In this document: positions 1-18,323 of the stretch, piece by piece
Numbering within the stretch: position 1 is the stretch's first letter
Layout: each line of letters starts with the position of its first letter
Assembly (NCBI GenBank): GCA_000004985.1
Contig: GG738960.1
Source: Naegleria gruberi
Lineage: Eukaryota
Direction: 5' to 3' (one strand)
Length of the DNA stretch: 18,323 nucleotides
Program-made: the position numbers and the translations under genes
Notes under the pieces: generated by a model
What the model was told of the DNA's origin: nothing
Seen by the model: only the letters and a program-made list of their open reading frames with translations
Databases searched by the model: none

Positions 1-328
1 TCTATTAATAAAAAAATAGAAGAATTTGAAAGCCTTTGTTAAAATTTAGTATTATACTCTCTCATATTCTTCTGTTTTGTAAATAAGAACAATACTCCTC
101 ATCTATTTTCAATATAGTTATAATAGTAATAATATTTAAGATTGCAATATATTACAGTATTTTTATCATCATTATATATTCCGAGTATTTTAAATTCATT
201 AAAACAATTGAATCTCAATTTTCTCTCTTCATTAATAATTAACAAATACATAACAATTATACAATCATATAGTAATATAACATTCAACTACTACTATTAT
301 AATATAACAACAAATAATACTAATTTAA

Positions 329-352
329 TAATAATAATAATAATAATAACAA
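329..352. repeat. (ATA/TAA)n trinucleotide microsatellite immediately upstream of the ATG at 354
   Basis: Direct reading: aataataataataataataataac ends 2 nt before the start codon. This is typical dictyostelid AT-microsatellite sequence in a 5' flank. Confidence 0.6.
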
Positions 353-353
353 A

Positions 354-1186
354 ATGAATACAAATTTACAAAAAGATTGTGAATATTCAATAGAATTAGG
401 TGATTCATTTTCACAATTAACAAATTCATCTTCTAATAATTCATCTAATTCTTCATCTTCTAATAATGAATTTCATTCACTTGTTTATAAATTTAAACCT
501 AAAAGTCTTAAAGATAATAGTTGGGAAGGTAAAATAGATATAGATACATCATCTACTATTGTACATTTAAATACTAATAATTCAAGATTATTTAAAGGTA
601 CATTTGAATCTTATAAAAAACCAAATATTCATGAATGTATTTTAATTTATGATAAAAATAGTAATACTTTTACTTTGGAAAAATTACATGCTACTATTGG
701 TGCTTTACAACAAATTGATAATAATTCTTCATCTTCAAATAATTTACAAAATTTAAATAATAATAATTCATTAAATAATATGATGATGAATAATATTATT
801 ACTGAAACTATTACAAGTAATTATTTGAATAATAATAATAATATGAATAATAGTAATAATTTGAATAATAATAATAATAATTTGAATAGTAATATGAATA
901 GTACAATGATGAGATCAAATTCATCTTCATCTACAACTCAATTATTAAATTCAACTGTATCATCTAAAACAACAACACCTCCAAAGAGAAGTTTAACACC
1001 AAGTAGTTCAACACATTCATTAGATATTGAATTACCAAAGAAGAAATTAAAAGATTCACCTCCTACTTTTAATCCTACTTTTATGACAAGTAATAATAAT
1101 ATGACTAATATGATAAATTCTAATATGACAAATAGTAATAATAATAGTAATAGTATGATGATGGTAAATAATAATGAAATGATANN
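354..1186 (+). CDS. EAF: ELL-associated factor (EAF) family transcription elongation factor homologue; 5' part only, 3' end runs into assembly gap
   Basis: ATG at 354 opens an ORF that continues into the N-run at 1187. From memory of human EAF1/2, the N-terminal ~110 aa match the conserved EAF N-terminal domain: ELGDSF ~ RLGESF; FHSLVYKFKPKS ~ FHTIRYDFKPAS; LFKGTFESYKKPNIHECILIYDKNSNTFTLEKL ~ [29 protein letters not shown]. Downstream is a Ser/Asn/Met-rich low-complexity tail (poly-N), as expected for an amoeba orthologue of the Ser-rich EAF C-terminus. The true 3' end is unknown because of the gap. Confidence 0.75.
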
Positions 1187-2847
1187 NNNNNNNNNNNNNN
1201 NNNNNNNNNNNNNNNNNNNNNNNNNNNNNNNNNNNNNNNNNNNNNNNNNNNNNNNNNNNNNNNNNNNNNNNNNNNNNNNNNNNNNNNNNNNNNNNNNNNN
1301 NNNNNNNNNNNNNNNNNNNNNNNNNNNNNNNNNNNNNNNNNNNNNNNNNNNNNNNNNNNNNNNNNNNNNNNNNNNNNNNNNNNNNNNNNNNNNNNNNNNN
1401 NNNNNNNNNNNNNNNNNNNNNNNNNNNNNNNNNNNNNNNNNNNNNNNNNNNNNNNNNNNNNNNNNNNNNNNNNNNNNNNNNNNNNNNNNNNNNNNNNNNN
1501 NNNNNNNNNNNNNNNNNNNNNNNNNNNNNNNNNNNNNNNNNNNNNNNNNNNNNNNNNNNNNNNNNNNNNNNNNNNNNNNNNNNNNNNNNNNNNNNNNNNN
1601 NNNNNNNNNNNNNNNNNNNNNNNNNNNNNNNNNNNNNNNNNNNNNNNNNNNNNNNNNNNNNNNNNNNNNNNNNNNNNNNNNNNNNNNNNNNNNNNNNNNN
1701 NNNNNNNNNNNNNNNNNNNNNNNNNNNNNNNNNNNNNNNNNNNNNNNNNNNNNNNNNNNNNNNNNNNNNNNNNNNNNNNNNNNNNNNNNNNNNNNNNNNN
1801 NNNNNNNNNNNNNNNNNNNNNNNNNNNNNNNNNNNNNNNNNNNNNNNNNNNNNNNNNNNNNNNNNNNNNNNNNNNNNNNNNNNNNNNNNNNNNNNNNNNN
1901 NNNNNNNNNNNNNNNNNNNNNNNNNNNNNNNNNNNNNNNNNNNNNNNNNNNNNNNNNNNNNNNNNNNNNNNNNNNNNNNNNNNNNNNNNNNNNNNNNNNN
2001 NNNNNNNNNNNNNNNNNNNNNNNNNNNNNNNNNNNNNNNNNNNNNNNNNNNNNNNNNNNNNNNNNNNNNNNNNNNNNNNNNNNNNNNNNNNNNNNNNNNN
2101 NNNNNNNNNNNNNNNNNNNNNNNNNNNNNNNNNNNNNNNNNNNNNNNNNNNNNNNNNNNNNNNNNNNNNNNNNNNNNNNNNNNNNNNNNNNNNNNNNNNN
2201 NNNNNNNNNNNNNNNNNNNNNNNNNNNNNNNNNNNNNNNNNNNNNNNNNNNNNNNNNNNNNNNNNNNNNNNNNNNNNNNNNNNNNNNNNNNNNNNNNNNN
2301 NNNNNNNNNNNNNNNNNNNNNNNNNNNNNNNNNNNNNNNNNNNNNNNNNNNNNNNNNNNNNNNNNNNNNNNNNNNNNNNNNNNNNNNNNNNNNNNNNNNN
2401 NNNNNNNNNNNNNNNNNNNNNNNNNNNNNNNNNNNNNNNNNNNNNNNNNNNNNNNNNNNNNNNNNNNNNNNNNNNNNNNNNNNNNNNNNNNNNNNNNNNN
2501 NNNNNNNNNNNNNNNNNNNNNNNNNNNNNNNNNNNNNNNNNNNNNNNNNNNNNNNNNNNNNNNNNNNNNNNNNNNNNNNNNNNNNNNNNNNNNNNNNNNN
2601 NNNNNNNNNNNNNNNNNNNNNNNNNNNNNNNNNNNNNNNNNNNNNNNNNNNNNNNNNNNNNNNNNNNNNNNNNNNNNNNNNNNNNNNNNNNNNNNNNNNN
2701 NNNNNNNNNNNNNNNNNNNNNNNNNNNNNNNNNNNNNNNNNNNNNNNNNNNNNNNNNNNNNNNNNNNNNNNNNNNNNNNNNNNNNNNNNNNNNNNNNNNN
2801 NNNNNNNNNNNNNNNNNNNNNNNNNNNNNNNNNNNNNNNNNNNNNNN
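1187..2847. other. assembly gap (run of N, ~1.66 kb estimated)
   Basis: Continuous n characters. The ORF-track 'X' translations crossing it are artefacts. Confidence 0.99.
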
Positions 2848-4335
2848 AATAATATAATTGAATTAAATTTATCAAATAATATTAAAATTACAAATGATTC
2901 AATTCAAATAATTTCATTTTATTTAAATAATTTAATTAATTTAAATTTATCAAATAATTTAGAAATTAATTATTTAAATGAAAATTTTATAAAATTAAAA
3001 AATTTAAAAATATTAAATTTAAATGAAACACAAATTGATAATTATTCAATTGAAGTAATTTCTAAATTAAATAATTTAATTGAATTATATATTTGTAAAA
3101 CTAATATTACAGATTTAAATTTTATTTTTACAAATATGATAAATTTAAAAAAATTACAAACAAGTTATATTCCTGGATTTAGAAATTATAATTTAACAAG
3201 TAATTTATCAAATTTATTTATAAATAATTTTAAAAATTTAGAAAAAATTCAATTTGAAAAATCAATTAATTCTTTAGAACCTTTATTTGTAAATGAAAAT
3301 TTAAATTTAATGGAATTAGGTTATCAATCTATAGATGAACCATGTATTTTATCTACTTTAAATTATTTAAATAATTTAATTATAATTGATAATAATATTA
3401 ATTTAATTATTTGTAAACATTTATCTAAATTAAGTAATTTAACAAAATTAGTAATTACTAATAATAAATCACAAATAGGTACAAAAGGATGTGAATTAAT
3501 TTCTAAAATGAATAATTTAACTCATTTAGAATTAAATTCAACTGGTGTTACTGGTGATGGTATTCAATATTTTCAACATTTAAATAAATTATCTATATTA
3601 GGAATTACAGGTGAAAAATGGGAAATTAAAGATGAACATGTTCAATTTTTATTAAATTTAAAATATTTAACTCATTTAGATTTAAATAATAATCAAATTT
3701 CTAATTTTGATTTAAATTTACATAAATTACTATATTTGGATTTAAGTAGTAATTCAATTTCAAAATTAACAAATTTTAATCAATTTAAATATTTAAAAAA
3801 TTTAAATTTATCTTTAAATCAAATTGAAAATATTGAACCTTTAATTCATTTAAAAAATTTAACACAATTAAATTTATCTTTTAATAAGAATATTAAAGAT
3901 ATTTCCTATTTAAGTAACTTGAAAAAATTAACATTTTTAGATTTATTTAGAACTGATATAGTTAATCAAGATTTGATTCATATTTCTAAATTAAGTCATT
4001 TAAAATATTTAAAATTAGATTGGATTACATTTGAAGGAATTAAACATTTAATTAATTTAACAAATTTAAAAGAATTAAAATTAATTGATTCTGAAATTGG
4101 TGAAAAGGGAATTAAAATTATTTGTGAAAAATTTCCATGTTTATCAAATTTAAATTTGGCAGGTACATTTGAAAAATCAAATCCAAGATTTGATGATGAA
4201 TCTTTTTTGAGACTTGCAATATTTTTAAATATTAAACATTTAAAAATTGGAAATATATATAAGGAAGTTGCAGATGAAATGAAAAAATATTTAAAAAAAT
4301 GTACAAATTTTGAATTTCATTCTGATTTTAATTAA
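2848..4335 (+). CDS. leucine-rich repeat (LRR) protein, 5'-partial (open reading frame begins inside gap 1)
   Basis: Frame 1 is open from the first base after the gap (NNIIELNLSNNIKITNDSIQ...) through the track ORF 3136..4335, so the listed Met at 3136 is internal. The sequence is tandem ~22-24 aa LxxLxxLxLxxNxIxxIxxL repeats, SDS22/internalin-like (e.g. LKYLTHLDLNNNQISNFDLNLHKLLYLDLSSNSISKLTNFNQFKYLKNLNLSLNQIENIEPL), plus an RNI-like segment (IGTKGCELISKMNNLTHLELNSTGVTGDGIQYF). Stop TAA at 4333-4335. Whether this is the 3' part of the EAF gene or a separate gene cannot be decided across a gap of unknown length. A separate gene is more likely, since EAF proteins are not LRR proteins. Confidence 0.7.
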   Translation, partial: NNIIELNLSNNIKITNDSIQIISFYLNNLINLNLSNNLEINYLNENFIKLKNLKILNLNETQIDNYSIEVISKLNNLIELYICKTNITDLNFIFTNMINLKKLQTSYIPGFRNYNLTSNLSNLFINNFKNLEKIQFEKSINSLEPLFVNENLNLMELGYQSIDEPCILSTLNYLNNLIIIDNNINLIICKHLSKLSNLTKLVITNNKSQIGTKGCELISKMNNLTHLELNSTGVTGDGIQYFQHLNKLSILGITGEKWEIKDEHVQFLLNLKYLTHLDLNNNQISNFDLNLHKLLYLDLSSNSISKLTNFNQFKYLKNLNLSLNQIENIEPLIHLKNLTQLNLSFNKNIKDISYLSNLKKLTFLDLFRTDIVNQDLIHISKLSHLKYLKLDWITFEGIKHLINLTNLKELKLIDSEIGEKGIKIICEKFPCLSNLNLAGTFEKSNPRFDDESFLRLAIFLNIKHLKIGNIYKEVADEMKKYLKKCTNFEFHSDFN

Positions 4336-4458
4336 ATTTGTATTAATAAATAATTCGTATTCTCTGATATACTACTCAACTGCTTGTCATCCAACAGTTG
4401 TTCATTAGAAAGCTACAAAATTATCCAACCAGGATCCTAATTAGTTGCAGATGAATGA

Positions 4459-4973
4459 NNNNNNNNNNNNNNNNNNNNNNNNNNNNNNNNNNNNNNNNNN
4501 NNNNNNNNNNNNNNNNNNNNNNNNNNNNNNNNNNNNNNNNNNNNNNNNNNNNNNNNNNNNNNNNNNNNNNNNNNNNNNNNNNNNNNNNNNNNNNNNNNNN
4601 NNNNNNNNNNNNNNNNNNNNNNNNNNNNNNNNNNNNNNNNNNNNNNNNNNNNNNNNNNNNNNNNNNNNNNNNNNNNNNNNNNNNNNNNNNNNNNNNNNNN
4701 NNNNNNNNNNNNNNNNNNNNNNNNNNNNNNNNNNNNNNNNNNNNNNNNNNNNNNNNNNNNNNNNNNNNNNNNNNNNNNNNNNNNNNNNNNNNNNNNNNNN
4801 NNNNNNNNNNNNNNNNNNNNNNNNNNNNNNNNNNNNNNNNNNNNNNNNNNNNNNNNNNNNNNNNNNNNNNNNNNNNNNNNNNNNNNNNNNNNNNNNNNNN
4901 NNNNNNNNNNNNNNNNNNNNNNNNNNNNNNNNNNNNNNNNNNNNNNNNNNNNNNNNNNNNNNNNNNNNNNNNN
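4459..4973. other. assembly gap (N run, ~0.5 kb); isolated single N also at 4988
   Basis: Continuous n characters. Confidence 0.99.
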
Positions 4974-6460
4974 TCTTCTGTTGTTACNACTGTTACAAAG
5001 AGCTGATTGTGATATGTGTTATAAATGCTTAAGCTATTACTGTTACAATATATAATCTCCAATTGTTTTGTGTGCATAGTCACAACGCAATAGTTTTAGG
5101 CGAGATCTAGTATTGATGCCGTATATTATTATACTCAGCTTACTAACACTGCTCATACAATGCATAAAATGTTGTTTTCATGATTCTGTGTTGTCTCCAC
5201 ACTTACTGTAAGTTATGATCGTAATATTTCTAGAGAAGTGGTTGATAATCATTCGGTAATATTGAATTACTCTGTTGCTAGTATTGCACAAAAGAATGAT
5301 AGTTACGTTACTGCTAAGTTGACATACACAAAATTATGTTCATCTTTTGCATCGTTCATGTACATCAACAATTTATGCATTGTATGAACAGAAATCAATC
5401 TTGGTTCTTTCTGAATCAGCTTCAGAATTAATAACATTATTCCACTTTCACTATTGGAAAAATTGGAAGTAAAAATTTGTGAATCTTTATTAAGAAAAGA
5501 TGTAACAACAGGCGTCTATGGTGATAAATCTCAAGGAGGACTTTGGCTTTCATCTCTAGTTGATATAAGTCACGAGGATGACATCTATCTGATAGGTAAG
5601 TCAATTCTACCTCTCCTATCAACCAAAATCGCAAATGTATTTCACAAATACTGGAATGTCAAGTAAGATTGGACCCATGCATTCCAAACTGAAATCTGCA
5701 AAGCCCTAGCTATCTATTTGGAAAATTGCTAGTCCAATCAAATTAACAGGGAAACTTACTGGTTGTAGACCTCGTCTCTCACAAGGTCTTTACGATACAT
5801 GAGATGTTAATAAATATTACAATTTAGATTTATTGATTATATCTGTCAAATTGAGTTGAATGGGATACAGATGACAATGGACAGGGAACCCATTGTTGTG
5901 GGATTATTGCTGGGAAACAATGGTGTGGCTGAATTCAAAATTCGTAACAAAAGTTGTGGATGACACAGTTGTGGTGATGCTGAAACACGTAGTCAGGGAA
6001 TCAAATATCACTGTAGGAAGTGAACATAAACTTGGAAGTTGGTAGTGGTGGTACTATCATCATGACTAGTTGGAGGTGTTATTGTTTGTGGTTGTGATGT
6101 AATATCTAGTTGTTTTTCTTCATCATCAGAAAGACTACTTCTTGATGAATAAGTTGAAGAGGAAGATGAAGTGGACAGAATCTACTTTCTGGTCACTCAA
6201 AGTATTGACATTTGTGACAAATGATTACAAAGCAGCCTCAGACAAATCCATTGCAAAACCTGTAATCTCAGGAATGTTAGAAGAGGAAGGTCAGCCATTG
6301 AAAGAAATTTAAATTGCAATCACACAACGAAACATTACCTTAAACAGCTCTCTCACAATGCCAATAAAGAATTGGAAAAGGGTTTTGGTATTCCAGATTT
6401 CAGAGAGGTAATGGAGCATGATGGCCTGTTCTTAAGCAGAATCAGAGATACAAATTAGAA
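4974..6460. other. GC-elevated island (about 36-42% GC versus ~20% in flanks) lacking any long ORF; contains the subtilase pseudogene below; abuts gap 2 on its left
   Basis: Seen in sequence: base composition shifts abruptly after the gap and returns to AT-rich sequence near 6460-6640. The six-frame track shows only ORFs of 70 aa or less. A 100-nt sample (5870-5969) counts to about 42% G+C by hand. Confidence 0.6.
5454..6045 (+). pseudogene. decayed subtilisin-like serine protease (peptidase S8) gene fragment, + strand, convergent with the intact subtilase gene
   Basis: Three blocks lie in the canonical order and spacing of subtilase catalytic motifs, but each is in a different frame. (1) Frame 0, 5454-5666: ...GGLWLSSLVDISHEDDIYLIGKS, a degenerate match to the Asp-box W..G.TG..V.VIDTGID..HPDL. 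(2) Frame 2, 5870-5932: DDNGQGTHCCGIIAGKQWCG*, which is the His-box NGHGTHVAG with the catalytic His replaced by Gln and a stop 6 codons later. A 1-nt shift then reads LGNNGVAEFKI (compare GVAP.AKI in the intact paralogue). (3) Frame 1, 6031-6045: KLGSW*, the SxSWG box, followed by a stop. Multiple frameshifts and stops indicate a pseudogene. Confidence 0.5.
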
Positions 6461-6675
6461 GACTGATTGGAATTCATATTCATCATCTTGTGCAAATATT
6501 TTGTAAATAGGCAAGAAGAAGAGCAAAGACCAACATTGAAATTGAAGGTTGAAAGACAAATGAAGGCAGGAAACAAACTTGTCAAACTTTTGCATGTTTA
6601 CAGAGAGAGAACAAAAAGTCGACTCAACATAAATAGGTATATTATTATTATTTATTTATTTATATATTTATAAAT

Positions 6676-8018
6676 TTAATAAAAATTACATTGATTTAAA
6701 TTCAAAGTATTTCCACCCAAATTATAAATACTACCATATAAATTAACAACATTAAAATTAACAACACCCTTAGTTAAAATGTTACCATAAATAGGACCAT
6801 TAACTGCAATACTATTATTAATTAACCAATAAACATTATCATAGGTAGCACCATTAATAAATTCAAATGTAATAAAATTACTATTTAAATTACTTGCTAA
6901 TTTCAATACAATTGGACCATCAGAACCAGAGAATGTAATTTTAGTATTACCATTCAATCCTTGTGGGAAACAATAAACATTATTAGAATTGAATACAAAT
7001 CCACTGGCTGGAATATTTTGATCCATATTATTAACAGTACATTGTAATGATTGTAATTGATCATACTTGTTAAGAGCATTTTCAATAATATATTGTGATT
7101 CATCATTATTAATATTTAAAACATAATTACTTGTTGGTTGTAATTGTTGTACTTGGAATGGTCTATCAGTTGCAATTGAACCTGGAATTAATAATGAGGA
7201 TGATTGTGCATTTTGTGAGAGAATTGAACCCTTAGAAATGATTTTATAACCCAATAGAGGTGATGGTGCCAATCCTTGTTCAATATCACCACTCACTACC
7301 AATGAAAAGTTTTGTGAACCAATATTTGTTGATTTGGCAACAATTCTCAATGTAAATTGACGTTTATCACCTCCAGTTGTTGTAGTTGTAGTTGTAGTTG
7401 TAGATTGTAATAATTGTTCAGGTGAAATGATAATCTTTTCAACAGTATTAATTGAATCATCTTGTGTAGATCTTTCAACACCTGGATTTGAATTAATAAT
7501 TTCATTAGAATTTGATTTAATTAAATATAAATCAATATCATTAATTAATTGTTTCATTGTAACAGTTGATGGATCAGTAATAGTACCAGCATAATCATAC
7601 CATGTTAATGTTACTTTAATTGGTATTTTAGATTTTCTATTACTAATATAGAATGGAATATTTAATTCTTGATTTGGTGATAATGAATATCTATTAATAA
7701 TAAATAATTTAGATCCAATTAATGATTTTGATTCTTCTACATTAGAAAATAATAATGAATTCTTTAAATTAACACTACCATATCCATTAAATTTGTTAGG
7801 GAATGGTAAATTAGATAATGGTTGTAAAATTGATGGTATTTCAGCTGTATTAACTCCATTCATTGGAACAAATCCATTCATTTTCTGTGCTGAATGAATT
7901 ATCATGGCTTTAACAAGTGATCCTGAAATACTTTGTTGTGGATTCTTATCATATATACTTAATAAACCAATATTTTGTGTTAAATAATCTCTAACCAATG
8001 CTGCACTACCAGCAATAC
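6676..8018 (-). CDS. subtilisin-like serine protease, exon 3 (C-terminal 446 aa plus stop); begins with 2 nt completing a split Ser codon
   Basis: Minus-strand ORF 6676..7998 extends upstream to the acceptor aataatAG|GT at 8020/8019. The first residues, (S)IAGSAALVRDYL, are the standard continuation of the GTSMAxP Ser-box. The region includes a poly-Thr linker (TTTTTTTTTGG) encoded by (ACAACT)n at about 7378-7406, and a long beta-rich C-terminal extension. Stop TAA at 6678-6676 (minus). Confidence 0.8.
7378..7406. repeat. hexanucleotide (GTTGTA)n / (ACAACT)n coding repeat giving a poly-Thr linker in the subtilase C-terminal region
   Basis: Direct reading on + strand: gttgtagttgtagttgtagttgtag. 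Confidence 0.7.
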
Positions 8019-8119
8019 CTATTATTATTATTATTATTAAATATTAAATTAAAATTATTAAATTAAAAATATTAAATTAAATTAAATAAATAAAAATAAA
8101 TAAAATATAAAAAACTTAC

Positions 8120-8615
8120 TTGGTGTTGCCATAGATGTACCTGATTTTTGAGTTAAAGTAACAGATGGAGTACATTGAGTAACATTCTTATTATAGGCAG
8201 CCCAAATTAAAACACCAGGACCAACAACATCAGGTTTAGATCTACCATCAGCAGTATTACCACGTGCAGAGAAATAGGCCATATTTTCATGATTAAATAA
8301 AACTTCATCAATTGGTGTCGTATTAAATCTGGTATATTCTTGTAAGTGAGCATATTGTGCACCGACAGTGAGAGCATTCTTTGATGTAGATGGTGTTAAA
8401 ATAGTACCACCTTCACTTGAAAAATGTCCATTATTACCAGCTGCAAATACAATTAACATTTCATCATTGGCACGTGTGAAGGAATCTGATGTTGATGCAT
8501 CTTTATCATAGGAATTACATACTTGACAACATTTAACTCCATATTGAGCTAAACATGTTGTATCATTAATTGGTTTACCTGTTTCATATTCATAACAATC
8601 ACAATCATAATAACA
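8120..8615 (-). CDS. subtilisin-like serine protease, exon 2 (165 codons + 1 nt): Cys-rich insert, oxyanion Asn and catalytic Ser motifs
   Basis: Starts after the intron-1 acceptor ...aataatAG|tgttat (AG at 8617-8616 minus). It encodes CYYDCDCYEYETGKPINDTTCLAQYGVKCCQVCNSYDKD..., then MLIVFAAGNNGHF (oxyanion-hole Asn motif AAGNxG), then ...LTQKSGTSMATP (catalytic Ser motif GTSMAxP). It ends at cca a|GTAAGT (donor at 8119-8118 minus). The phase arithmetic is consistent: exon 1 ends in phase 0, and 496 nt leaves 1 nt that joins the 2 nt at the exon-3 start to make AGT (Ser). Confidence 0.8.
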
Positions 8616-8727
8616 CTATTATTATATTATATTATATTATATTATATAAAAATATTAAAATATTAAAATATTATTATATTAAAAATAAATAAATAAAATT
8701 AAAAATAAATAAAATAATAAAACATAC

Positions 8728-10101
8728 AGTGAATGGATTTGCACAACCCCAACTATTACTACTAATTCTAGCTTGTCTACTATAAGCAGTAGTTAAATAA
8801 CTATTTAAAGAAGAAACATAAAAGAAAATACTTCTCATAACATCAGTAACATAAATCTTTGCTTGTGGAGCTACACCAGTATCTTGTTTCATTGGATTTG
8901 TTTCATCATTTGAATCAATATTACCAGCAGCAATAGAAGCACAATGTGAACCATGTCCATTATTATCTAATTTATCACCCCATAATGTAACAGGTTGATA
9001 GAATATAATCTTTCTATTGGAATAATTTGGTGTGGTAAAATAATTTTCATTTTCCTTAAAGAAATGACAATGATTAACTTCAACACCTGAATCAATAATT
9101 TGAATCACTTGATTTTGACCTGTAATACCTTGATCCCAAATAAATCTATTATTAGAATTACCAGAATTACCAGAATTAGATTGACCACCATTTTGAATTA
9201 CAATATTTGAACCAAATGTTAATAATTCTTGTGGAAATTGTCTTGAAATGGATTCTACATTTTCTTTAAATAATGAATTTAATAATAATTCACCTAATTG
9301 TTGAGATAGATCATCATATTCTTTCAATTCATAATGTTGAGAATATTCTTCTAATGATCTTCTTCTATTTAACATGTTTACAATATTAGTTCTAGCAGAT
9401 GATTGAACTTGTAATTGATTTTCTTTTTCTTGTTTAAGTAATGGCCAAATATTTACATTGAAATTTTGTAAAGCAATAATATACACATCATTTTCTTCTT
9501 CTTCTACTTGAATTGTAAAGGCATTTTCTAATTCTCTCTTTAACCATTGACTATTTCTCTTTTTAGTTGAACTCTTTACATTTTCAATATTTTGTTGTAA
9601 AGTTAATGTAAATTCTTCTTTAATATTTAAAATAGATTTCAATGAAGAAGTAGTAGTAGCATCTCTCTTATTAGAAGTAGTAGAATCATCTTCTTGTGAT
9701 TTCATAACAATTCTTAAATTAGAATATAATAAACTATTCATATCTAATTTAGAAAAAGTAATTCTATGTTCATATGGTACACGTTCAATACTTTCAATAA
9801 TAGAAGATAATTCATTTCTAGCCTTTTCTAATTGTTGGTTATTTAACCAAGTAATGAATGTTTTAGGATAACGAGCTGTAACTTTTAATTCTTGATTATT
9901 ATTGGATAATACTTTTGAAATTTGTTGAATAATTTCATTGGTAACAATAATAGATTGTTTAACTTTAACATATACATTGGTAGTACTTTCTAATACTTGA
10001 TTATTATTAGTATTTAACATTAAATTAATACCATCTAATGGATGACTTTTAACACCATTTGAAGTGTTATTGGCATAGACAAGGGTAACAACAAAAATCA
10101 A
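8728..10101 (-). CDS. subtilisin-like serine protease, exon 1 (signal peptide, long propeptide-like region, Asp and His catalytic motifs); true start codon unresolved
   Basis: Minus ORF 8674..10101 encodes a hydrophobic N-terminus (RIVGSFLLVLIFVVTLVYA, a signal peptide). It then has VIQIIDSGVEVNHCHF (Asp-box, D[ST]G) and LDNNGHGSHCASIAAGN (His-box HGTH-like), ending ...ISSNSWGCANPFT | GTATGT. The donor is at 8727 and the intron (8616-8727) is 112 nt. The track's 'M' at 10101 is a TTG (Leu). The frame is open upstream to a TAA at 10167-10165 with no in-frame ATG. The nearest ATG (10151-10149, behind an A8 run) is in the +1 frame and terminates after 9 codons. Confidence 0.75.
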
Positions 10102-10140
10102 TACTAGAAGGAATGAACCAACTATTCTTGAATTATTGTT

Positions 10141-10724
10141 TGATATTTCATTTTTTTTATAGTTTTAATTGAGTGTTGTTGTTTGTACTCGTTCTATTTA
10201 AAAGTAATTTCACCAAGTGTTGTGATAGAGGAAAAATTTTAACTGCGACTGCAAAGAGCACTCATTCATAGATTCAATGTGAACATGTGGATATTAGAAT
10301 CGATCTTTGTGAGATGTCAAGTCCAAACCAATAATCTTACCATATATGGAATGTGATAACAATATTTGGAGTGTGAGCTCTTTAATAAAATGCCGAACCG
10401 TTTTGATTTTACATGGTATTAAACTTCTCATTCAGTCAAACGATATCTAGTCAGAGAAACTAACTGCTCAATAAATAAATGACTTTTAATAGTAGGCGCT
10501 GTAGCATGTATTTCAATTATAACACAAGTCAACACATTTCAATGCTAGCTAAACTACAATAGTGTTGAAGAATATCTCTTATAATGTGGTAAAGATGATT
10601 CTGATTTGGTGGTGTTATCAGGATCACCTGATTTGAGACCAGTGTTGTGTTCTTTTTGAAAGTCAACACATTCGATTAAAATTAGTATCATGCACTATTT
10701 CAGGATTCTGTATCACTATCTTTG
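10141..10724. other. second GC-elevated island immediately upstream (5') of the subtilase gene and abutting gap 3; nature unknown (repeat/TE remnant, or unusual UTR/promoter)
   Basis: Composition of about 35-38% GC against about 20% background, with no ORF above 60 aa in any frame. It is adjacent to an N run, which is a typical signature of a repeat-induced assembly break. Confidence 0.4.
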
Positions 10725-11255
10725 NNNNNNNNNNNNNNNNNNNNNNNNNNNNNNNNNNNNNNNNNNNNNNNNNNNNNNNNNNNNNNNNNNNNNNNNNNNN
10801 NNNNNNNNNNNNNNNNNNNNNNNNNNNNNNNNNNNNNNNNNNNNNNNNNNNNNNNNNNNNNNNNNNNNNNNNNNNNNNNNNNNNNNNNNNNNNNNNNNNN
10901 NNNNNNNNNNNNNNNNNNNNNNNNNNNNNNNNNNNNNNNNNNNNNNNNNNNNNNNNNNNNNNNNNNNNNNNNNNNNNNNNNNNNNNNNNNNNNNNNNNNN
11001 NNNNNNNNNNNNNNNNNNNNNNNNNNNNNNNNNNNNNNNNNNNNNNNNNNNNNNNNNNNNNNNNNNNNNNNNNNNNNNNNNNNNNNNNNNNNNNNNNNNN
11101 NNNNNNNNNNNNNNNNNNNNNNNNNNNNNNNNNNNNNNNNNNNNNNNNNNNNNNNNNNNNNNNNNNNNNNNNNNNNNNNNNNNNNNNNNNNNNNNNNNNN
11201 NNNNNNNNNNNNNNNNNNNNNNNNNNNNNNNNNNNNNNNNNNNNNNNNNNNNNNN
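10725..11255. other. assembly gap (N run, ~0.53 kb)
   Basis: Continuous n characters. Confidence 0.99.
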
Positions 11256-12016
11256 AAATAAAAAGTAGTTGTTAAAACATTTGTTGTTTTCTTTTTAAAA
11301 ATTACATTTTCTCTTTTAATTTCCAATGATGATAAATTATTTAATTTTAAATATTCATCAAAATATAAATCACAATATATATCTATATTTGTACCTCTAA
11401 ATAAATTACCAACTCCAAATGGTGTATATATTAATGATACTCCTAATATATTAGTTGTATTTTGTAATAATTTTACACTTGGTTGACCTGTATTACTTAA
11501 TGGTTTACAATATGAACTTTCAATTTGAAATGCAACTGATGATAATTGATCTCCTGAATTACATAATGAAAAATTTGTAACATAATTACATATTTGTAAT
11601 ATATATTCTTCTGAACTTTGTTCATTAATCACTTTATAATATCCATTAGTTGATGATGCATTTGTAACATCTATTATTTGTGTTGAATCTATATTTATAT
11701 AACAAGCTTGTTGTCCTTTTACAATAATATTATTATTATTTAATATTATTGTAAATAATGTTAATGTTGATGAATATTTTAATGAGTGTGGTGATGTTAG
11801 TGATGATGATGTTGATGAATGTAGTGCTAGTGAAGATGATGGAAATGTATTATTAAATAAATCATGTATGATCATCATTGAACAATCAAATGATATTATT
11901 ATAATTATTATTAATATTATTACATGTTTAATATATTCCGATAATGATTGTTTACAATGACTATATTTTAAACGATAATGATGATTCATCATAATTGAAG
12001 ATAACAAGTTTGTCAT
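11256..12016 (-). CDS. hypothetical type-II/signal-anchor membrane protein with Ser/Thr-rich stalk and Cys-containing ectodomain; 3' end truncated by gap 3
   Basis: ATG at 12016-12014 (MTNLLSSIMMNHHYRLKYSHCKQ...) is followed by a strongly hydrophobic segment VIILIIIIIISF. Next comes a Ser/Thr-rich tract (SSSLALHSSTSSSLTSPHSLKYSSTLTL), then about 170 aa of ordinary composition with 7 Cys. The frame stays open into the N run at 11255. No recognisable domain; the product is unknown. Confidence 0.5.
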
Positions 12017-12133
12017 TTTTTTATAAATTATTTGATTCTAATTAAACATTCTATTATTATTATTAATATCTAGATTCTACTTTAAAAGAACAATTCTGAT
12101 TCTAATTTCAAAAATTCCAATGAATTAGATAAT

Positions 12134-13189
12134 TTATTTAACATTTCTATCTTTCCATTTAGATGGTTTTAATTGTAAAGGTCTATTTCCTAAATATTTT
12201 CCATTTAAATTTTCCAAAGCATGAATATAATCATTTGAATCTAAAAAACTGATAAAACCAAATCCCTTAGATCTATTCGTTCTTTTATCTCTAATCACAC
12301 AGGCTTTACTAAAACTTGGATAGGATTGAAAGAAAGTTGTTAACATTTGATCTGTTACTTCATTTCCTAAATTATTAGCATAAATTCTATAATCATTCTC
12401 TGAAAATTCATCCAATCTTGAATCTTCCCAAACTTCACTCTTTCCACTTGCTGTAAAAACTGTTCTCAAATTCTTCTTCTTTTTCTTATTGGAATTTTCA
12501 AGTTCTTGTTGAGCTTGTTCATGTTCTAATAATTCTTGTTGATATTGTTGTTGAATTTGTGATGATTCCTTCTTTCTTTGATAATCCATCATGTATATTT
12601 GTTTTTCAATGGAATTATCATCATTTGATTGATTATTATTATTTGATTGATTGTTATTTAACACTGCATTACTATTAATTATATTATTATTAGCAGATGA
12701 TGATTTAGTGGTAGTACTATTGGGTTTAATACTTGTTACTGGAGTTGAAGTGTTTTTTAAGGATTTTTGTATTTGAGAGGCTACTTGTTTTCCAAGACCA
12801 TTCACTGGAGCTGTAGTATTATGTGGTTTTTGAATTTTAGATAATTGTGGTGGTGGAATAGTAGAGGGTTGACTTTTTGTAGCCTTCGTTATTGTTGTTG
12901 GTGTAGGTGCAGTTTTACTAGGAGTTGATGAAGATGATGATGGTGGTACACTAGTAGAGGATGGTTGAGTTGATGATGGTAGTAGGGATGGAGTTGTGGA
13001 TGTTGGAGGAACACCAGTCTTGTTTAACTTTTGTGCAATATTTTGTTGTAATTTTGCCAACTTGGATTGTAAATCATTAGCATTGGGTATCAGGGCTTTA
13101 TTCACAACTGTTGTTGTTGGTTTACTAGATGGTGTCAATGCCGATGATGATGATGCTATTGATGATGTGGCATTGTTATTTGATGACAT
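12134..13189 (-). CDS. RBM42: RNA-binding protein with C-terminal RRM, orthologue of RBM42 (RNA-binding motif protein 42)
   Basis: Continuous minus ORF, ATG 13189-13187, stop at 12134. The C-terminal 90 aa form an RRM, with RNP-2 YRIYANNL and RNP-1 KGFGFISF. From memory of the human RBM42 C-terminus, the match is close over the whole domain: SEVWEDSRLDEF..DYRIYANNLGNEVTDQMLTTFFQSYPSFSKACVIRDKRTNRSKGFGFISFLDSNDYIHALENLNGKYLGNRPLQLKPSKWKDRN against SSWEDPSLLEW.DDFRIFCGDLGNEVNDDILARAFSRFPSFLKAKVIRDKRTGKTKGYGFVSFKDPSDYVRAMREMNGKYVGSRPIKLRKSMWKDRN. The N-terminal half is low-complexity and S/T/P-rich. Confidence 0.8.
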   Translation of the reverse strand: MSSNNNATSSIASSSSALTPSSKPTTTVVNKALIPNANDLQSKLAKLQQNIAQKLNKTGVPPTSTTPSLLPSSTQPSSTSVPPSSSSSTPSKTAPTPTTITKATKSQPSTIPPPQLSKIQKPHNTTAPVNGLGKQVASQIQKSLKNTSTPVTSIKPNSTTTKSSSANNNIINSNAVLNNNQSNNNNQSNDDNSIEKQIYMMDYQRKKESSQIQQQYQQELLEHEQAQQELENSNKKKKKNLRTVFTASGKSEVWEDSRLDEFSENDYRIYANNLGNEVTDQMLTTFFQSYPSFSKACVIRDKRTNRSKGFGFISFLDSNDYIHALENLNGKYLGNRPLQLKPSKWKDRNVK

Positions 13190-13207
13190 TTTTTAAGATT
13201 AAGAAAA

Positions 13208-14236
13208 ATGACTCAACAAGAAAATACTTCACCTTCAACAACAACTAGCCTTTCCGAAAATGTTTCATCATCAACAACAACAATAACATCATCGGAATGT
13301 TTATCAATTGTAAATAAAAATGTAGTATTAGATAAAACTAATTTAATACAATCATTAATAGAACAACAACAACAACAACAACATGAAGATAAAAACCAAT
13401 CATCATCACTTGCTAATCAATCCAATAATAAGAAGAATATAACAAGAATTAAATCATCAACATCAACATTTATGCAATCAGTTATTAGTATTCGTAATGA
13501 AATACAAAATATAGAATATGAAATACAATCATTTATTTCACATTTATTAAGAGAATCTAATAATAATGATATGAATGAAATATATTATGATGAAATTGAT
13601 AAACAAATATTTGAAAGTAGTAATCATTTAAATTTATTAAAAAGTATTATTGATCAATCTAAATATTCATCTGATCAATATCATCAACAATTACATTATA
13701 AATCAATTATACAATTTTTAAATCATTCACTTAATCATTGTAAACATTTATTATCATTCACTCAAAATCTTAAAGATAGAAAAAAGTTTACAAAAAATAA
13801 TCAATCACATTTATTATTTAATGAAAATGAAAATAATACTTTAGAGGAAGAAGAAATAACTAATGAAAATAGAAATGATTTTATAATACAACAAGAATTA
13901 ATGAAACAATTATCATCATCAACAGATTTACAAGATGCACAAGATACAGAAATAACAGCAATTCAAATCAGTGAATTATTAACAGCCTTTGAATCCAAAG
14001 TAGAAGAACAAGGTGAATTAATGAACATGTTTGAAAATAATATTGAACAAGCAAATGACTGTATGGATCAAGCAAATGAAGAATTGAGAAAATTAAATAA
14101 GAAAGATGATACTAAATTACCATTTCCATATAATATTTTACCAACCTATGTCAGTCACTTTATCAAATATTTTGTTTCTTACTTGTTTGTTATATTGGGT
14201 TTAATCATTTTCATTTATGATAGAATAAAATTGTAA
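13208..14236 (+). CDS. tail-anchored t-SNARE, syntaxin-family (Qa-SNARE) protein
   Basis: Continuous ORF of 342 aa. The C-terminal hydrophobic segment FVSYLFVILGLIIFIY, followed by a few residues, is a tail anchor. It is preceded by a SNARE motif with a zero-layer Gln: ITAIQISELLTAFESKVEEQGELMNMFENNIEQANDCMDQANEELRK. This aligns with the syntaxin-1 H3 region ...[27 protein letters not shown]. There is a poly-Gln run at 13367-13386. The subfamily (for example syntaxin-18/Ufe1-like) cannot be decided from memory. Confidence 0.7.
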   Translation: MTQQENTSPSTTTSLSENVSSSTTTITSSECLSIVNKNVVLDKTNLIQSLIEQQQQQQHEDKNQSSSLANQSNNKKNITRIKSSTSTFMQSVISIRNEIQNIEYEIQSFISHLLRESNNNDMNEIYYDEIDKQIFESSNHLNLLKSIIDQSKYSSDQYHQQLHYKSIIQFLNHSLNHCKHLLSFTQNLKDRKKFTKNNQSHLLFNENENNTLEEEEITNENRNDFIIQQELMKQLSSSTDLQDAQDTEITAIQISELLTAFESKVEEQGELMNMFENNIEQANDCMDQANEELRKLNKKDDTKLPFPYNILPTYVSHFIKYFVSYLFVILGLIIFIYDRIKL

Positions 14237-14474
14237 TTTATTTATCTATTATTATTATACACAATTAGATAAAAGTTGAAAGGTTATCCATAGCTTTGAA
14301 GTGATATAGTATTGATGAAGATATTGATATCTTCTAGAAGTGAGTGAAAATACCTTTCAAAAGTTTTAGTGAAGCAAAGAAATGAATGTTTGAAAAAAAT
14401 TAGCAAAAATAATTTGAACTTGTTTTGCTTTTTAATTTTCAAGGAGAGAGGAAATAATAACATAACAATCGGAA

Positions 14475-15698
14475 ATGGCTAAAAAGAAGAAGAATACTCA
14501 ACAACAACAATCTAATGGAGGAGAACAATCCGAAGCTCCAGTTGCTGCTACTACTACCACTTCTTCTAATCAAGTTGTAGAAGAAACAAAGCAACCAAAT
14601 GCTCCTAAACAACAACCAAAACAGAAAAAGCCAAAACAAAAGCAACCACAACAACAACCTAATAATCAACAACAACCACAAGAGGGAGAAAGTGTTGTTT
14701 CTACTACTACTCCTCAACAATCTGCTCCAAAACAACAACCAAAGCAGAAAAAACCAAAACAACCACCACCACAACCTAAAAAGAAGGCTAAACAACAAAA
14801 TCAACAAGAAGCCTCATCATCATCAGTTGTGGAAAGTGAAAATAAGGAAGTGGAAGGTAATGATAGTAGTACTACTATTACACCACCTCCACCACTTAAT
14901 ACAGAGTCATCAGTAACAACAACAGTATCAGCATCGACAGAACAACCTGCTGCTGCTAAAAAGAAGAAGAAGAAGAAAAAGAAGAAGGCTTCTACTACAA
15001 GTGGTTCAACCACTGAGGAATCTGCAACAATAACAACAGATAATAATAATACTGAAAATGTTTCTCAGCCTTCAACTATTGCTAACACTCCAACACAAGC
15101 ATCAAATACTTCTAAACAAACAAAGTCTGCTAAAAAGCAAAAACAAAAACAACCTCAAAATCAATTATCTAAAAAACAACAACGTCATCAACATCAACAA
15201 CAACAACAAGCAAATTTTCAACAACTTAAACAAAAGTTTGAAAAACCACTTCCAGCCTTTTTTGTTGCATTTGATTTATTAACAAATTTAGAACCAAGTA
15301 AATTACAAAAAGGTTTACAAATATTTATTGATGAAAGTGAAAGAATAATTTTAGAAAATATTGAAAATTTAAATGATGATACTAAATATAATTTAATACA
15401 AGTTTATCAATATCCAACAATACCTCATCCTGTATTTGTTGATAAATTTTCATCAAGTGATTTAACAAGTTCATATTTTTACAAACAATTTAAATATTTA
15501 TATGATAAATCAAATAATGAATTGAAATTCATTCCATTTAAAGATAACAAATGTTATATTTATCAATTATATTATAATGATCAATTCTTTATTATTTTAT
15601 CAAATATATTTAAATATATTTTGAAGAATTACCTAAAAAAGGAAATGAATATGGTGAAAAGATTTCACTTTTATTACAAGTTAAATTATTTACAGTAA
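14475..15698 (+). CDS. large low-complexity protein, N-terminal part (Lys/Gln/Pro-rich, poly-Lys tract, internal ~15-aa duplication); frame 0 reading that ends at a TAA likely created by a frame break
   Basis: ATG 14475, MAKKKKNTQQQQ... The segment APKQQPKQKKPKQ occurs twice (14611-14650 and 14722-14760). (AAG)n at 14958-14987 encodes K11. After about residue 245 the composition becomes ordinary (PLPAFFVAFDLLTNLEPSKLQKGLQIFIDESERIILENIENL...). The product is unknown, and the basic KKKK N-terminus suggests nuclear or nucleolar localisation (inference). Confidence 0.6.
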   Translation: MAKKKKNTQQQQSNGGEQSEAPVAATTTTSSNQVVEETKQPNAPKQQPKQKKPKQKQPQQQPNNQQQPQEGESVVSTTTPQQSAPKQQPKQKKPKQPPPQPKKKAKQQNQQEASSSSVVESENKEVEGNDSSTTITPPPPLNTESSVTTTVSASTEQPAAAKKKKKKKKKKASTTSGSTTEESATITTDNNNTENVSQPSTIANTPTQASNTSKQTKSAKKQKQKQPQNQLSKKQQRHQHQQQQQANFQQLKQKFEKPLPAFFVAFDLLTNLEPSKLQKGLQIFIDESERIILENIENLNDDTKYNLIQVYQYPTIPHPVFVDKFSSSDLTSSYFYKQFKYLYDKSNNELKFIPFKDNKCYIYQLYYNDQFFIILSNIFKYILKNYLKKEMNMVKRFHFYYKLNYLQ

Positions 15699-15801
15699 TT
15701 TTATACATGATGAGATATATTTTACCACAAGATTTTAATAATGAAAAATCACCAATTTTATTAAGAGCAAATCAATTTATTAATTTAGTATTACCATATT
15801 T
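15614..15801 (+). CDS. continuation of the same gene in frame 2 (open from 15614 to gap 4)
   Basis: Frame 2 is open from the TAA at 15611-15613 and reads ...FEELPKKGNEYGEKISLLLQVKLFTVILYMMRYILPQDFNNEKSPILLRANQFINLVLPY into the N run. Joining frame 0 to frame 2 with a 1-nt change in the (TA)n/A-T run at about 15611-15625 gives a seamless protein, ...SNIFKYIFEELPKKGNEY.... No plausible intron is present: the only GT...AG candidate (15654-15695) is 42 nt, too short. Confidence 0.5.
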
Positions 15802-18312: not shown

Positions 18313-18323
18313 ATGCATTTGAA

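What the first reader, a model, noticed from the sequence alone, without database searches (positions are those of the whole stretch)
4974..6460. GC-rich island carrying a decayed subtilase paralogue, tail-to-tail with the intact subtilase gene
On the + strand the island contains degenerate Asp-, His- and Ser-box remnants of a peptidase S8 domain (VDISHEDDIY at about 5559-5588, DDNGQGTHCCGIIAG at 5870-5914, and GVAEFKI and KLGSW at 6031-6042). They are in the right order and spacing but spread over three reading frames with stops, and the catalytic His is replaced by Gln, so it is a pseudogene. It is convergent with the intact subtilase that ends at 6676, an inverted-duplication geometry. Its composition (about 36-42% GC) is far above both the local background (about 20%) and the neighbouring functional paralogue. 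That is the wrong direction for a pseudogene decaying in an AT-biased genome. It suggests a recent origin from a GC-richer source: horizontal acquisition, a transposon-carried copy, or a mis-scaffolded foreign fragment (the left side is a gap). Any of these is worth resolving.
Basis: partly seen in the sequence, partly recalled or inferred. Interest (0 to 1): 0.65.

Follow-up and report, generated by a model that had tools for sequence, protein, structure and literature searches.

The report
Anonymous spacer with a subtilase scrap
The "GC-rich island" is real, but it is stop-riddled spacer DNA in a Naegleria gruberi scaffold (not a slime mould); it has the normal base composition of that genus and carries only one ~25-codon, disabled scrap of a subtilase active-site motif, so it is a minor relic and not a recognisable foreign pseudogene.

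Summary
The island exists. It spans 4974-6640, and the same composition continues left of the gap at about 4355-4458. GC is 0.35, flat over codon positions, with no open reading frames beyond random expectation.

The window is a complete 18,323-bp scaffold of the Naegleria gruberi assembly, not a dictyostelid. The neighbouring subtilase is 57-63% identical to Naegleria orthologues and has no dictyostelid hits.

- A family HMM scores it 8.7 bits, against 0 of 3000 random sequences reaching that score.
- All 25 PDB matches to it are subtilases.
- Pfam scores it below threshold (E=0.16).
- The proposed Asp and Ser boxes, and any colinear extension, are not supported.

The composition argument reverses. 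The island's 35% GC is the Naegleria norm of 33-37%. The flanking genes are the outliers (GC3 0.04-0.16, introns 3% GC), so no GC-richer donor is needed.

Best reading: non-functional spacer DNA holding an eroded fragment of a local subtilase duplication. Chance resemblance and an assembly artefact remain open. Interest is low to modest.

The parts
4355..4458 (.). Left edge of the island, before the gap. GC is about 0.35 and it starts about 20 nt after the stop codon of the LRR gene (3136-4335).
   Evidence: 60-nt GC profile: 0.15 at 4300-4359, rising to 0.35 at 4360-4419. GC 0.356 and CpG o/e 0.32. Sequence read.
4459..4973 (.). Assembly gap of 515 N inside the island. A single n also sits at 4988.
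4974..6640 (.). Main body of the island: ORF-free DNA with GC 0.347 and GC by codon phase of 0.36/0.36/0.32.
   Evidence: Composition. Longest open stretch is 83 codons against a null median of 81; 203 stops against a null 5-95% range of 203-240. No Pfam family in any of the six frames, no Rfam family and no tRNA, no plasmid match. The only database protein hit is the scaffold's own ab-initio model.
5858..5929 (+). Subtilase His-box-like patch in one frame: EWDTDDNGQGTHCCGIIAGKQWCG. Gln (CAG, 5882-5884) replaces the catalytic His. It is bounded by in-frame TGA codons at 5852-5854 and 5930-5932.
   Evidence: Family HMM 8.7 bits against a maximum of 4.6 in 3000 random islands. Pfam PF00082 11.7 bits, E=0.16, profile positions 51-70. 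tblastn from about 20 S8 proteins all lands on 5870-5914. All 25 PDB matches are subtilases, aligned at the catalytic His region. 65% nucleotide identity to the neighbour's His-box DNA over 55 nt.
5916..5942 (+). NNGVAEFKI in the next frame, reachable by a 1-nt shift. It resembles the GVAPxAKI motif that follows the His box, but without the 12-18 residues normally in between. Suggestive only.
   Evidence: Read and compared. It adds nothing to the Pfam or HMM scores. Alignments do not extend through it at normal penalties.
5559..5588 (+). Not supported as an S8 remnant.
   Evidence: No HMM, Pfam or tblastn signal. It lies 104 codons upstream of the His position, against about 46 in the neighbouring gene (protein).
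6028..6042 (+). It is not the catalytic Ser motif (GTSMAxP). At most it echoes the SNSWG motif.
   Evidence: no score.
5149..5391 (.). Inverted repeat (arms 5149-5183 and 5356-5391, 86-92% complementary) enclosing about 170 nt. No target-site duplication was seen. Possibly a small foldback or MITE-like unit, or chance.
   Evidence: I2. (blastn E=5e-5 within the window). Folding z-score only -2.15.
6641..6675 (.). 35-nt spacer of A and T only, between the island and the subtilase stop codon. Presumed 3' UTR or terminator of the subtilase gene.
   Evidence: GC 0.0. GC is 0.03 in the 60-nt window 6640-6699.
6676..10151 (-). Neighbouring subtilase gene with three exons (to 8728, 8615-8120, 8018-6676) and two introns of 3% GC. 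D/H/N/S motifs are all present. Overall GC3 is 0.10.
   Evidence: Splice reconstruction and translation. Best hits N. lovaniensis 60-63%, environmental Naegleria-like contig 57%, then Willaertia and N. fowleri. tblastx colinearity with L001 and L002. The ATG at 10151-10149 is one base out of frame with the signal peptide.
10170..10724 (.). Second ORF-free block of bulk-like composition (GC 0.33), just upstream of the subtilase start and running into gap 10725-11255.
   Evidence: No Pfam family. No similarity to the first island.

Best explanation
The island is non-coding, non-functional spacer DNA of about 2.3 kb (gap included). It lies between two convergent genes, an LRR gene and a subtilase, on a small scaffold of Naegleria gruberi.

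Its base composition is the ordinary one for Naegleria nuclear DNA. It looks 'GC-rich' only because the genes around it are unusually AT-rich.

Embedded in it is one short relic, about 25 codons at 5858-5929, of the His-box region of a subtilase. The catalytic His is changed to Gln and the frame is closed by stop codons on both sides.

The most likely origin is an old, partial or since heavily deleted, inverted duplication of the adjacent subtilase gene or of its ancestor. Everything else of that copy has eroded beyond recognition.

Nothing is made from it. It is a fossil, not a working gene or a regulatory device.

Shown: the composition, the absence of reading frames, the identity and significance of the patch, the lack of any other S8 signal, and the organism. 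Inferred: that the patch descends from a local duplication, and that the island is not transcribed into anything useful.
For: Organism and context:
- Three-frame translation of the island hits only EFC36005.1 [Naegleria gruberi], whose longest contig is 18,323 bp, the window length.
- The subtilase is 57-63% identical to Naegleria orthologues over its full length.
- A second gene is 53% identical to an N. lovaniensis protein.

The patch is subtilase-like beyond chance:
- Family HMM: 8.7 bits, with 0 of 3000 random islands reaching that score.
- Frameshift-aware alignment scores of 55-63 for four of the five test queries exceed all 150-300 nulls; P0002 (score 47) does not.
- All 25 PDB hits are subtilases.
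- It sits beside a subtilase gene, on the opposite strand.

It is disabled:
- Gln replaces the catalytic His, there are in-frame TGA codons 6 codons before and 5 codons after the DDNG...IIAG motif, and a frameshift is needed to reach the next motif.

The rest is ORF-free at random expectation, with no family match.

Composition is native-like:
- GC 0.347 against 33-37% for Naegleria genomes (PMC12482156, PMC9928731, PMC6125883).
- The orthologous loci have intergenic GC of 0.26-0.40 and GC3 of about 0.3.
- The dinucleotide signature (CpG 0.33, TpG/CpA about 1.4, TpA 0.7) resembles both the flanks and the relatives.

Boundaries respect gene ends: composition switches at about 4355, 6640 and 10170 lie 20-70 nt outside coding sequence.
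Against: - Only about 25 codons carry signal, and Pfam's own score is below its threshold (E=0.16). A relic that keeps 11 of 15 motif residues while all else is erased is odd under uniform decay.
- Introns and short spacers in this locus are 0-8% GC. Old neutral DNA here should by now be far more AT-rich than 35%. So either the island is young, in which case more subtilase similarity should survive, or untranscribed DNA here has a different equilibrium. That is unexplained.
- Gene order is not conserved. N. lovaniensis has a myosin gene and an environmental relative has a DUF4116 gene convergent with the orthologous subtilase. Neither has a second subtilase there.
- 515 nt of the island are unsequenced.
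- The scaffold is low-coverage draft sequence.
Confidence: 0.45

Rival explanations
1. Chance resemblance. The island is plain anonymous intergenic (or long-dead repeat-derived) Naegleria DNA, and the His-box-like peptide is a coincidence noticed because a subtilase gene lies next door.
For: - Pfam is below threshold (11.7 against 21.8 bits, E=0.16).
- The PDB E-value of 0.011 is for one 31-aa window out of about 100 possible in six frames.
- No second motif is supported.
- ORF statistics are fully random.
- There is no synteny support for a second subtilase.
- The spacing does not fit the neighbour's architecture.
Against: - 0 of 3000 random islands reach the HMM score; the best is 4.1 bits lower, giving an extrapolated p of about 2e-5.
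- Every PDB hit is a subtilase aligned on the catalytic His.
- The a-priori chance that such a match falls next to a subtilase gene is small.
Confidence: 0.25
2. Assembly artefact. The 35% GC blocks are bulk-genome N. gruberi sequence joined to AT-rich contigs by chimeric clones or poor read ends in a low-coverage, hard-to-clone region, so the island is not really next to the subtilase.
For: - The scaffold is small and has four gaps.
- Both ends of contig 4974-10724 and the right end of contig 2848-4458 are island-like and abut gaps.
- There is an n at 4988.
- An apparent 1-nt indel sits at the subtilase start.
- The island's composition equals the bulk genome, while the flanks are atypical for it.
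Against: - Three independent composition switches each fall 20-70 nt outside a coding end, in a window that is mostly coding. Random chimeric breakpoints would mostly hit coding sequence.
- 1.67 kb is longer than any single read tail.
- The right junction lies inside continuous sequence.
- There is no vector or plasmid match.
Confidence: 0.12
3. Recently arrived foreign or mobile DNA: a subtilase-bearing fragment from a GC-richer donor, whether a bacterium such as a Legionella-like cobiont, a virus or a transposon, now decaying.
For: - Third-position GC is about three times that of every gene in the window.
- An internal 36-nt inverted repeat is present.
- The patch's HGTHC...IIAG wording is closest to proteinase K and bacterial-type S8 sequences in the PDB.
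- Naegleria cells are known to host 33-40% GC Legionella-like bacteria (PMC12482156).
Against: - A recent arrival should keep long open frames and extended S8 similarity. It has neither.
- CpG is depleted, with TpG/CpA in excess, as in the host.
- The composition is simply the genus norm.
- There is no transposase, RT, TIR or TSD, and no plasmid match.
- The scan for viral relatives, run with the neighbouring subtilase family as query, found none.
- Landing next to the host's own subtilase would be a coincidence.
Confidence: 0.08
4. Functional non-coding element, such as a long non-coding RNA, a regulatory or insulator region or a replication origin, kept GC-richer than neutral DNA by selection. 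The subtilase-like patch would be incidental.
For: - The island stays at 35% GC although neutral sites nearby (introns, short spacers) are 0-8% GC.
- A similar block sits on the other side of the same gene.
- There are slightly fewer stops than the null median.
Against: - No Rfam family.
- The only structured element has a weak z-score.
- There is no sequence conservation with the regions flanking the orthologous gene in two relatives.
- The two blocks share no similarity.
Confidence: 0.05

Closest known systems
Peptidase S8 (subtilase) family, Pfam PF00082; specifically the heterolobosean subfamily of the neighbouring gene (N. lovaniensis C9374_002536 and C9374_011857)
   Same: The patch reproduces the His-box wording D-x-N-G-x-G-[ST]-H-C-x-x-I-x-A-G. 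It shares W..D, HC and AGN with the neighbour and IIAGN with the N. lovaniensis paralogue P0004. All PDB matches align on the catalytic His segment.
   Different: - There is no Asp box, no oxyanion Asn segment, no Ser box and no continuous frame.
- The catalytic His is Gln.
- The score is below the Pfam cut-off.
- The length available downstream (about 730 nt) is a third of what the neighbour's architecture needs.
Gene-fragment or duplicated (non-processed) pseudogene relics next to their parent gene
   Same: A disabled, parent-like sequence lies in inverted orientation within 800 nt of the parent's 3' end, with stops, a frameshift and loss of a catalytic residue.
   Different: Ordinary duplicated pseudogenes show extended colinear similarity to the parent and drift towards the local neutral composition. 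Here only about 70 nt are recognisable, and the composition (35% GC, GC3 0.32) is far from both the parent (GC3 0.10) and the local neutral sites (0-8% GC).
Compositional islands from horizontal transfer or integrated elements (for example the viral insertions with deviant GC flanked by inverted repeats in Acanthamoeba genomes, PMC11702301)
   Same: A sharply bounded block whose GC differs from its flanks.
   Different: The block matches the genome-wide norm rather than deviating from it. It has no genes, no terminal inverted repeats and no hallmark proteins. The flanking genes are the deviant part.

Membership tests
Peptidase S8 domain (functional or pseudogenised) | Profile match to PF00082 at or above the gathering score | tested here: not met
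   Six frames: no hit at E<=10. Stitched peptide: 11.7 bits against a cut-off of 21.8, E=0.16, covering only 19 residues.
Peptidase S8 domain (functional or pseudogenised) | His-box motif (HGTH...AG) recognisable | tested here: met
   DDNGQGTHCCGIIAG at 5870-5914. Family HMM 8.7 bits, with 0 of 3000 nulls reaching it. PDB hits are all subtilases. The catalytic His itself is replaced by Gln.
Peptidase S8 domain (functional or pseudogenised) | Asp box and Ser box present, in the order D-H-S with family-like spacing | tested here: not met
No HMM, Pfam or tblastn signal outside the His box. Frameshift-tolerant alignments end at the His box.
Duplicated pseudogene of the adjacent subtilase | Extended colinear similarity to the parent gene at protein or DNA level | tested here: not met
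   tblastn of the parent: one 15-aa HSP, E=0.28. blastn: 28 nt at 79%. 65% identity over 55 nt.
Duplicated pseudogene of the adjacent subtilase | Disabling lesions (stops, frameshifts, loss of catalytic residues) | tested here: met
   TGA at 5852-5854 and 5930-5932, His to Gln, and a frame change needed to reach GVAEFKI. Some indels could be draft errors.
Duplicated pseudogene of the adjacent subtilase | A second subtilase at the syntenic position in related genomes | tested here: not met
   N. lovaniensis has a myosin-head gene there. The environmental contig L002 has a DUF4116 gene. Neither is similar to the island. The closest relative, N. clarki, could not be reached with the tools.
Horizontally acquired island | Composition atypical of the recipient genome | tested here: not met
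   0.347 GC against a genus range of 33-37% (PMC12482156). It matches L001 and L002 intergenic and third-position GC. Caveat: no bulk N. gruberi DNA could be fetched for a direct comparison.
Horizontally acquired island | Identifiable donor-like sequence or intact foreign genes | tested here: not met
   No protein hits other than the scaffold's own model, no plasmid match and no ORFs.
Transposable element | Transposase, RT or integrase remnants, terminal repeats, target-site duplication | tested here: not met
   No Pfam hits. The boundary 'repeats' are AT-rich low complexity. The internal 36-nt inverted repeat has no TSD.
Transposable element | Multiple copies in the genome | not testable with these tools
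   The rest of the N. gruberi assembly is not available. Only the window could be searched, and no second copy was found.
Assembly chimera | Junctions unsupported by spanning reads or mate pairs | not testable with these tools
   No read data. Indirect evidence against: the switches sit 20-70 nt outside coding ends at all three junctions.

The most novel reading that the evidence does not exclude
The mosaic is real and old. In this part of the N. gruberi genome, transcribed units (exons at third positions, introns, UTRs) have drifted to extreme AT-richness (GC3 about 0.1, introns 3% GC, CpG almost absent). Untranscribed spacer DNA has stayed at the genus-typical 35% GC long enough for a duplicated subtilase to erode to a single motif.

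That would imply either a transcription-linked or compartment-specific mutational regime, or an AT-rich genomic compartment that Sanger cloning under-sampled. Neither is described for Naegleria. The long-read N. clarki assembly is 13 Mb larger and lower in GC than the N. gruberi assembly (PMC11702301), which is compatible with the second possibility.
Probability: 0.12. Interest if true: 0.6.

Novelty: new member of a known kind. Interest (0 to 1): 0.25.

Why it matters
As a subtilase pseudogene it matters little. It is at most a 70-nt fossil with no function.

Three practical points follow:
- The scaffold is Naegleria, not Dictyostelium, so the checks proposed against dictyostelid transposon libraries would have been misdirected.
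- The only public gene model touching the island (NAEGRDRAFT_76327) is a chimera that stitches two unrelated genes and two random open stretches of the island across gaps. Meanwhile the real subtilase, and the parts of four other window genes that were searched for, turned up no exact gene model.
- The contrast between extremely AT-rich genes and genus-typical spacer DNA on one scaffold is unexplained. If it is general, it would bear on mutation bias, on gene prediction and on the completeness of the N. gruberi reference.

Tried and rejected
Looking for more subtilase signal:
- My own eyeballed extra motifs were LLVVDLVSHKVF at 5757-5792 as an Asp box, SDKSIAKPVISG at 6238-6273 as a Ser box and GFGIPDF at about 6381 as the GYG motif. 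They looked convincing, but Pfam, the family HMM, tblastn and frameshift-aware alignment with shuffled controls gave them no support. I dropped them.
- A spliced-gene reading, with stops explained by introns, was rejected. Open-stretch statistics equal random expectation, and introns in this locus are 3% GC, unlike the island.

Database searches on the island:
- A six-frame, 3360-aa database query timed out. A three-frame query of 5650-6460 found only the scaffold's own model.
It was not worth spending on a single 80-aa scrap.
- Rfam, tRNA and plasmid (vector or bacterial) searches found nothing.

Looking for related loci:
- Exact look-ups of three window ORFs and of P0001 found no other assembly of this locus.
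- Metagenome scans for close relatives of the subtilase found nothing with the single protein, and only 27-29% relatives with the alignment. The viral collection gave nothing.
- Synteny in N. lovaniensis and in an environmental Naegleria-like contig showed different neighbours and no similarity to the island.

Contamination:
- D. purpureum or other dictyostelid contamination of the JGI assembly was considered because of the Dictyostelium-like look. It was rejected because there are no dictyostelid hits and two genes have Naegleria best hits.
- ContScout lists only bacterial and a few other contaminants for N. gruberi. That was uninformative for this scaffold.

The low-quality read-tail idea was rejected. 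The island is too long, and other contig ends are normal AT-rich coding sequence.
Full report
**What is at the coordinates.**
- The window has four assembly gaps plus a single n at 4988.
- Between the gap at 4459-4973 and about 6640 lies a block with GC of 0.30-0.39 in 300-nt windows, 0.347 overall.
- The same composition is already present in the last 100 nt before the gap (4355-4458, GC 0.356). That stretch begins about 20 nt after the stop codon of an LRR gene (3136-4335).
- On the right the block ends at about 6640. A 35-nt spacer of pure A and T then leads to the stop codon (6676-6678) of a three-exon subtilase gene on the minus strand.
- A second, unrelated block of the same kind (10170-10724, GC 0.33) sits just upstream of that gene's start and runs into the next gap.

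**Which organism.** That is wrong.
- A three-frame translation of 5650-6460 found a single database protein, P0001. This is EFC36005.1 / XP_002668749.1 / NAEGRDRAFT_76327, 'predicted protein [Naegleria gruberi]'. Its longest contig is 18,323 bp, exactly the window length.
- P0001 is an ab-initio model. It joins an EAF-like ORF, parts of the LRR ORF and two open stretches of the island (5499-5594 and 6133-6309) across two gaps, so it is no evidence that the island is coding.
- The neighbouring subtilase is 60-63% identical over its whole length to N. lovaniensis C9374_002536. It is 57% identical to a gene on an environmental Naegleria-like contig, and less similar to Willaertia and N. fowleri proteins. 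There are no dictyostelid hits.
- A second window gene (14475-15698) is the probable match of a 53%-identity hit to an N. lovaniensis protein. The query pooled five window genes, so the matching segment is inferred from the coverage.

**Is there a subtilase pseudogene?**
- Pfam finds no family in any of the six frames of the island, even at E<=10.
- When I stitched the frames by hand to favour S8, Pfam reported only the His box: residues 55-73, 11.7 bits, E=0.16, against a cut-off of 21.8.
- tblastn with the neighbour gives one 15-residue HSP (E=0.28). About twenty other S8 proteins all hit the same 5870-5914 and nothing else consistently.
- An HMM built from the neighbour plus 35 relatives gives one domain: the His box, 8.7 bits.
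- None of 3000 first-order Markov random islands reached 8.7 bits; the maximum was 4.6. With the usual factor of two per bit, this extrapolates to p of about 2e-5.
- phmmer of the single-frame 31-residue peptide against all PDB sequences returns 25 matches. Every one is a subtilase aligned on the catalytic His segment, best E=0.011.
- So the patch 5858-5929 is subtilase-like beyond chance, given the specific question raised by the neighbouring gene.

**Nothing else is.**
- A frameshift-tolerant protein-to-DNA alignment that I wrote ends at the His box for all eight test subtilases. With penalties relaxed enough to extend further, it is not better than shuffled controls.
- 'KLGSW' is not the catalytic Ser motif.
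- The extra motifs I thought I saw myself gained no support either.
- The patch is disabled. Gln (5882-5884) stands for the catalytic His, TGA codons close the frame at 5852 and 5930, and a 1-nt shift is needed to reach the GVAEFKI string.
- The island as a whole has the ORF structure of random sequence: longest open stretch 83 codons against a null median of 81.
- The geometry does not fit a full inverted duplicate. The neighbour needs about 2270 nt from its His box to its stop; the island offers about 730.

**Composition, re-read.**
- The island is not much richer in GC than the neighbour's catalytic exon (0.35 against 0.34).
- The difference lies at third codon positions: 0.32 in the island against 0.04-0.16 in every gene of the window. 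Introns here are 3% GC and short spacers 0-8%.
- Published Naegleria genomes are 33-37% GC, with N. gruberi at 35% (PMC12482156, PMC9928731, PMC6125883).
- The two orthologous loci I could fetch have GC3 of about 0.29-0.37 and intergenic GC of 0.26-0.40.
- The island therefore has the ordinary composition of Naegleria DNA, and the genes around it are the outliers. A GC-richer donor is not needed.
- The dinucleotide signature (CpG 0.33, TpG/CpA about 1.4) is host-like.
- The lack of any long ORF argues against recent bacterial or viral DNA.

**Artefact?**
- The scaffold is low-coverage draft sequence.
- The subtilase's ATG (10151-10149) is one base out of frame with its signal peptide, which looks like a base-calling indel.
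- Still, the three composition switches (about 4355, 6640 and 10170) each lie 20-70 nt beyond a coding end in a window that is mostly coding. That is not what random chimeric joins would give.
- The right junction is inside continuous sequence.
- I could not test read support.

**Other searches.**
- There was no Rfam family and no tRNA, no plasmid or vector match, and no Pfam hit in the second block.
- The two blocks share no similarity, and neither resembles the flanks of the orthologous gene in two relatives.
- Gene order is not conserved: a myosin gene in N. lovaniensis and a DUF4116 gene in the environmental contig lie convergent with the subtilase.
- Metagenome and viral scans gave nothing close.
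- A 36-nt inverted repeat (5149-5183 / 5356-5391) is the only internal structure. Its fold z-score is -2.15.

**Verdict.**
There is a real compositional block and a real, disabled His-box-like patch. There is no demonstrable S8 domain.
- The most likely reading (0.45) is inert spacer DNA of native composition that retains one eroded fragment of a local subtilase duplication.
- The rivals are chance resemblance (0.25), an assembly artefact (0.12), foreign or mobile origin (0.08) and a functional non-coding element (0.05).
- One point remains unexplained: why ORF-free DNA holds 35% GC beside introns of 3% GC.
- The most novel reading that is still open (about 0.12) is a transcription-linked or compartment-specific AT drift, or an under-assembled AT-rich compartment, in N. 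gruberi.
- As a pseudogene finding it is ordinary; interest is about 0.25.

Noticed in passing
window 1-18323 (genes at 354-1184, 3136-4335, 6676-10151, 11256-12016, 12134-13189, 13208-14236, 14475-15698, 17311-18312): Every real gene on this N. gruberi scaffold is Dictyostelium-like in composition. GC3 is 0.04-0.16, introns are 3% GC, CpG o/e is 0-0.16, and there are poly-Asn, poly-Gln and poly-Thr runs. Naegleria genomes are 33-37% GC, and the orthologous subtilase genes in two relatives have GC3 of about 0.3. It is unclear whether this is a special AT-rich compartment, typical of N. gruberi genes, or something else.
   Followed up: partly
window 354-6312 (model NAEGRDRAFT_76327 / EFC36005.1): The only public gene model found for this scaffold is a chimera. 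It fuses an EAF-like ORF, parts of an LRR ORF and two random open stretches of the island across two gaps. No exact (100%-identity) model turned up for the subtilase catalytic region or for the parts of the RBM42-like, syntaxin-like, 14475-15698 and 11256-12016 genes that were searched.
   Followed up: partly
window 10170-10724: A second ORF-free block of about 33% GC lies immediately upstream of the subtilase start and abuts gap 10725-11255. It has no Pfam hit and no similarity to the first island. The subtilase gene is thus bracketed by bulk-composition DNA on both sides.
   Followed up: partly
window 10100-10151 (minus strand): The subtilase's only upstream ATG (10151-10149) reads MKYQTIIQE and then a stop. 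The signal peptide (…SRIVGSFLLVLIFVVTLVYA) is in another frame and has no ATG. One inserted base would join them. This is probably a base-calling indel in an A-run, or possibly a real lesion in the 'intact' gene.
   Followed up: partly
window 5149-5183 and 5356-5391: An inverted repeat of about 36 nt (86-92% complementary) encloses about 170 nt. blastn E is 5e-5 within the window, no target-site duplication was seen, and the fold z-score is only -2.15. It could be a small foldback or MITE-like unit.
   Followed up: partly
L002:700-800 (environmental Naegleria-like contig, JGI 3300002220): In this relative the subtilase His-box codons appear to be followed directly by GTAAGT (…GGTCATGG|GTAAGT). 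This suggests an intron splitting the His box, although the gene caller annotated the region as two adjacent ORFs (1-612 and 860-2542).
   Followed up: no
window 2848-3135: The very AT-rich stretch (8% GC) upstream of the LRR ORF's ATG contains LRR-like repeat units in register with those inside the ORF (repeat families). The LRR gene probably starts further upstream, inside or beyond gap 1185-2847.
   Followed up: no
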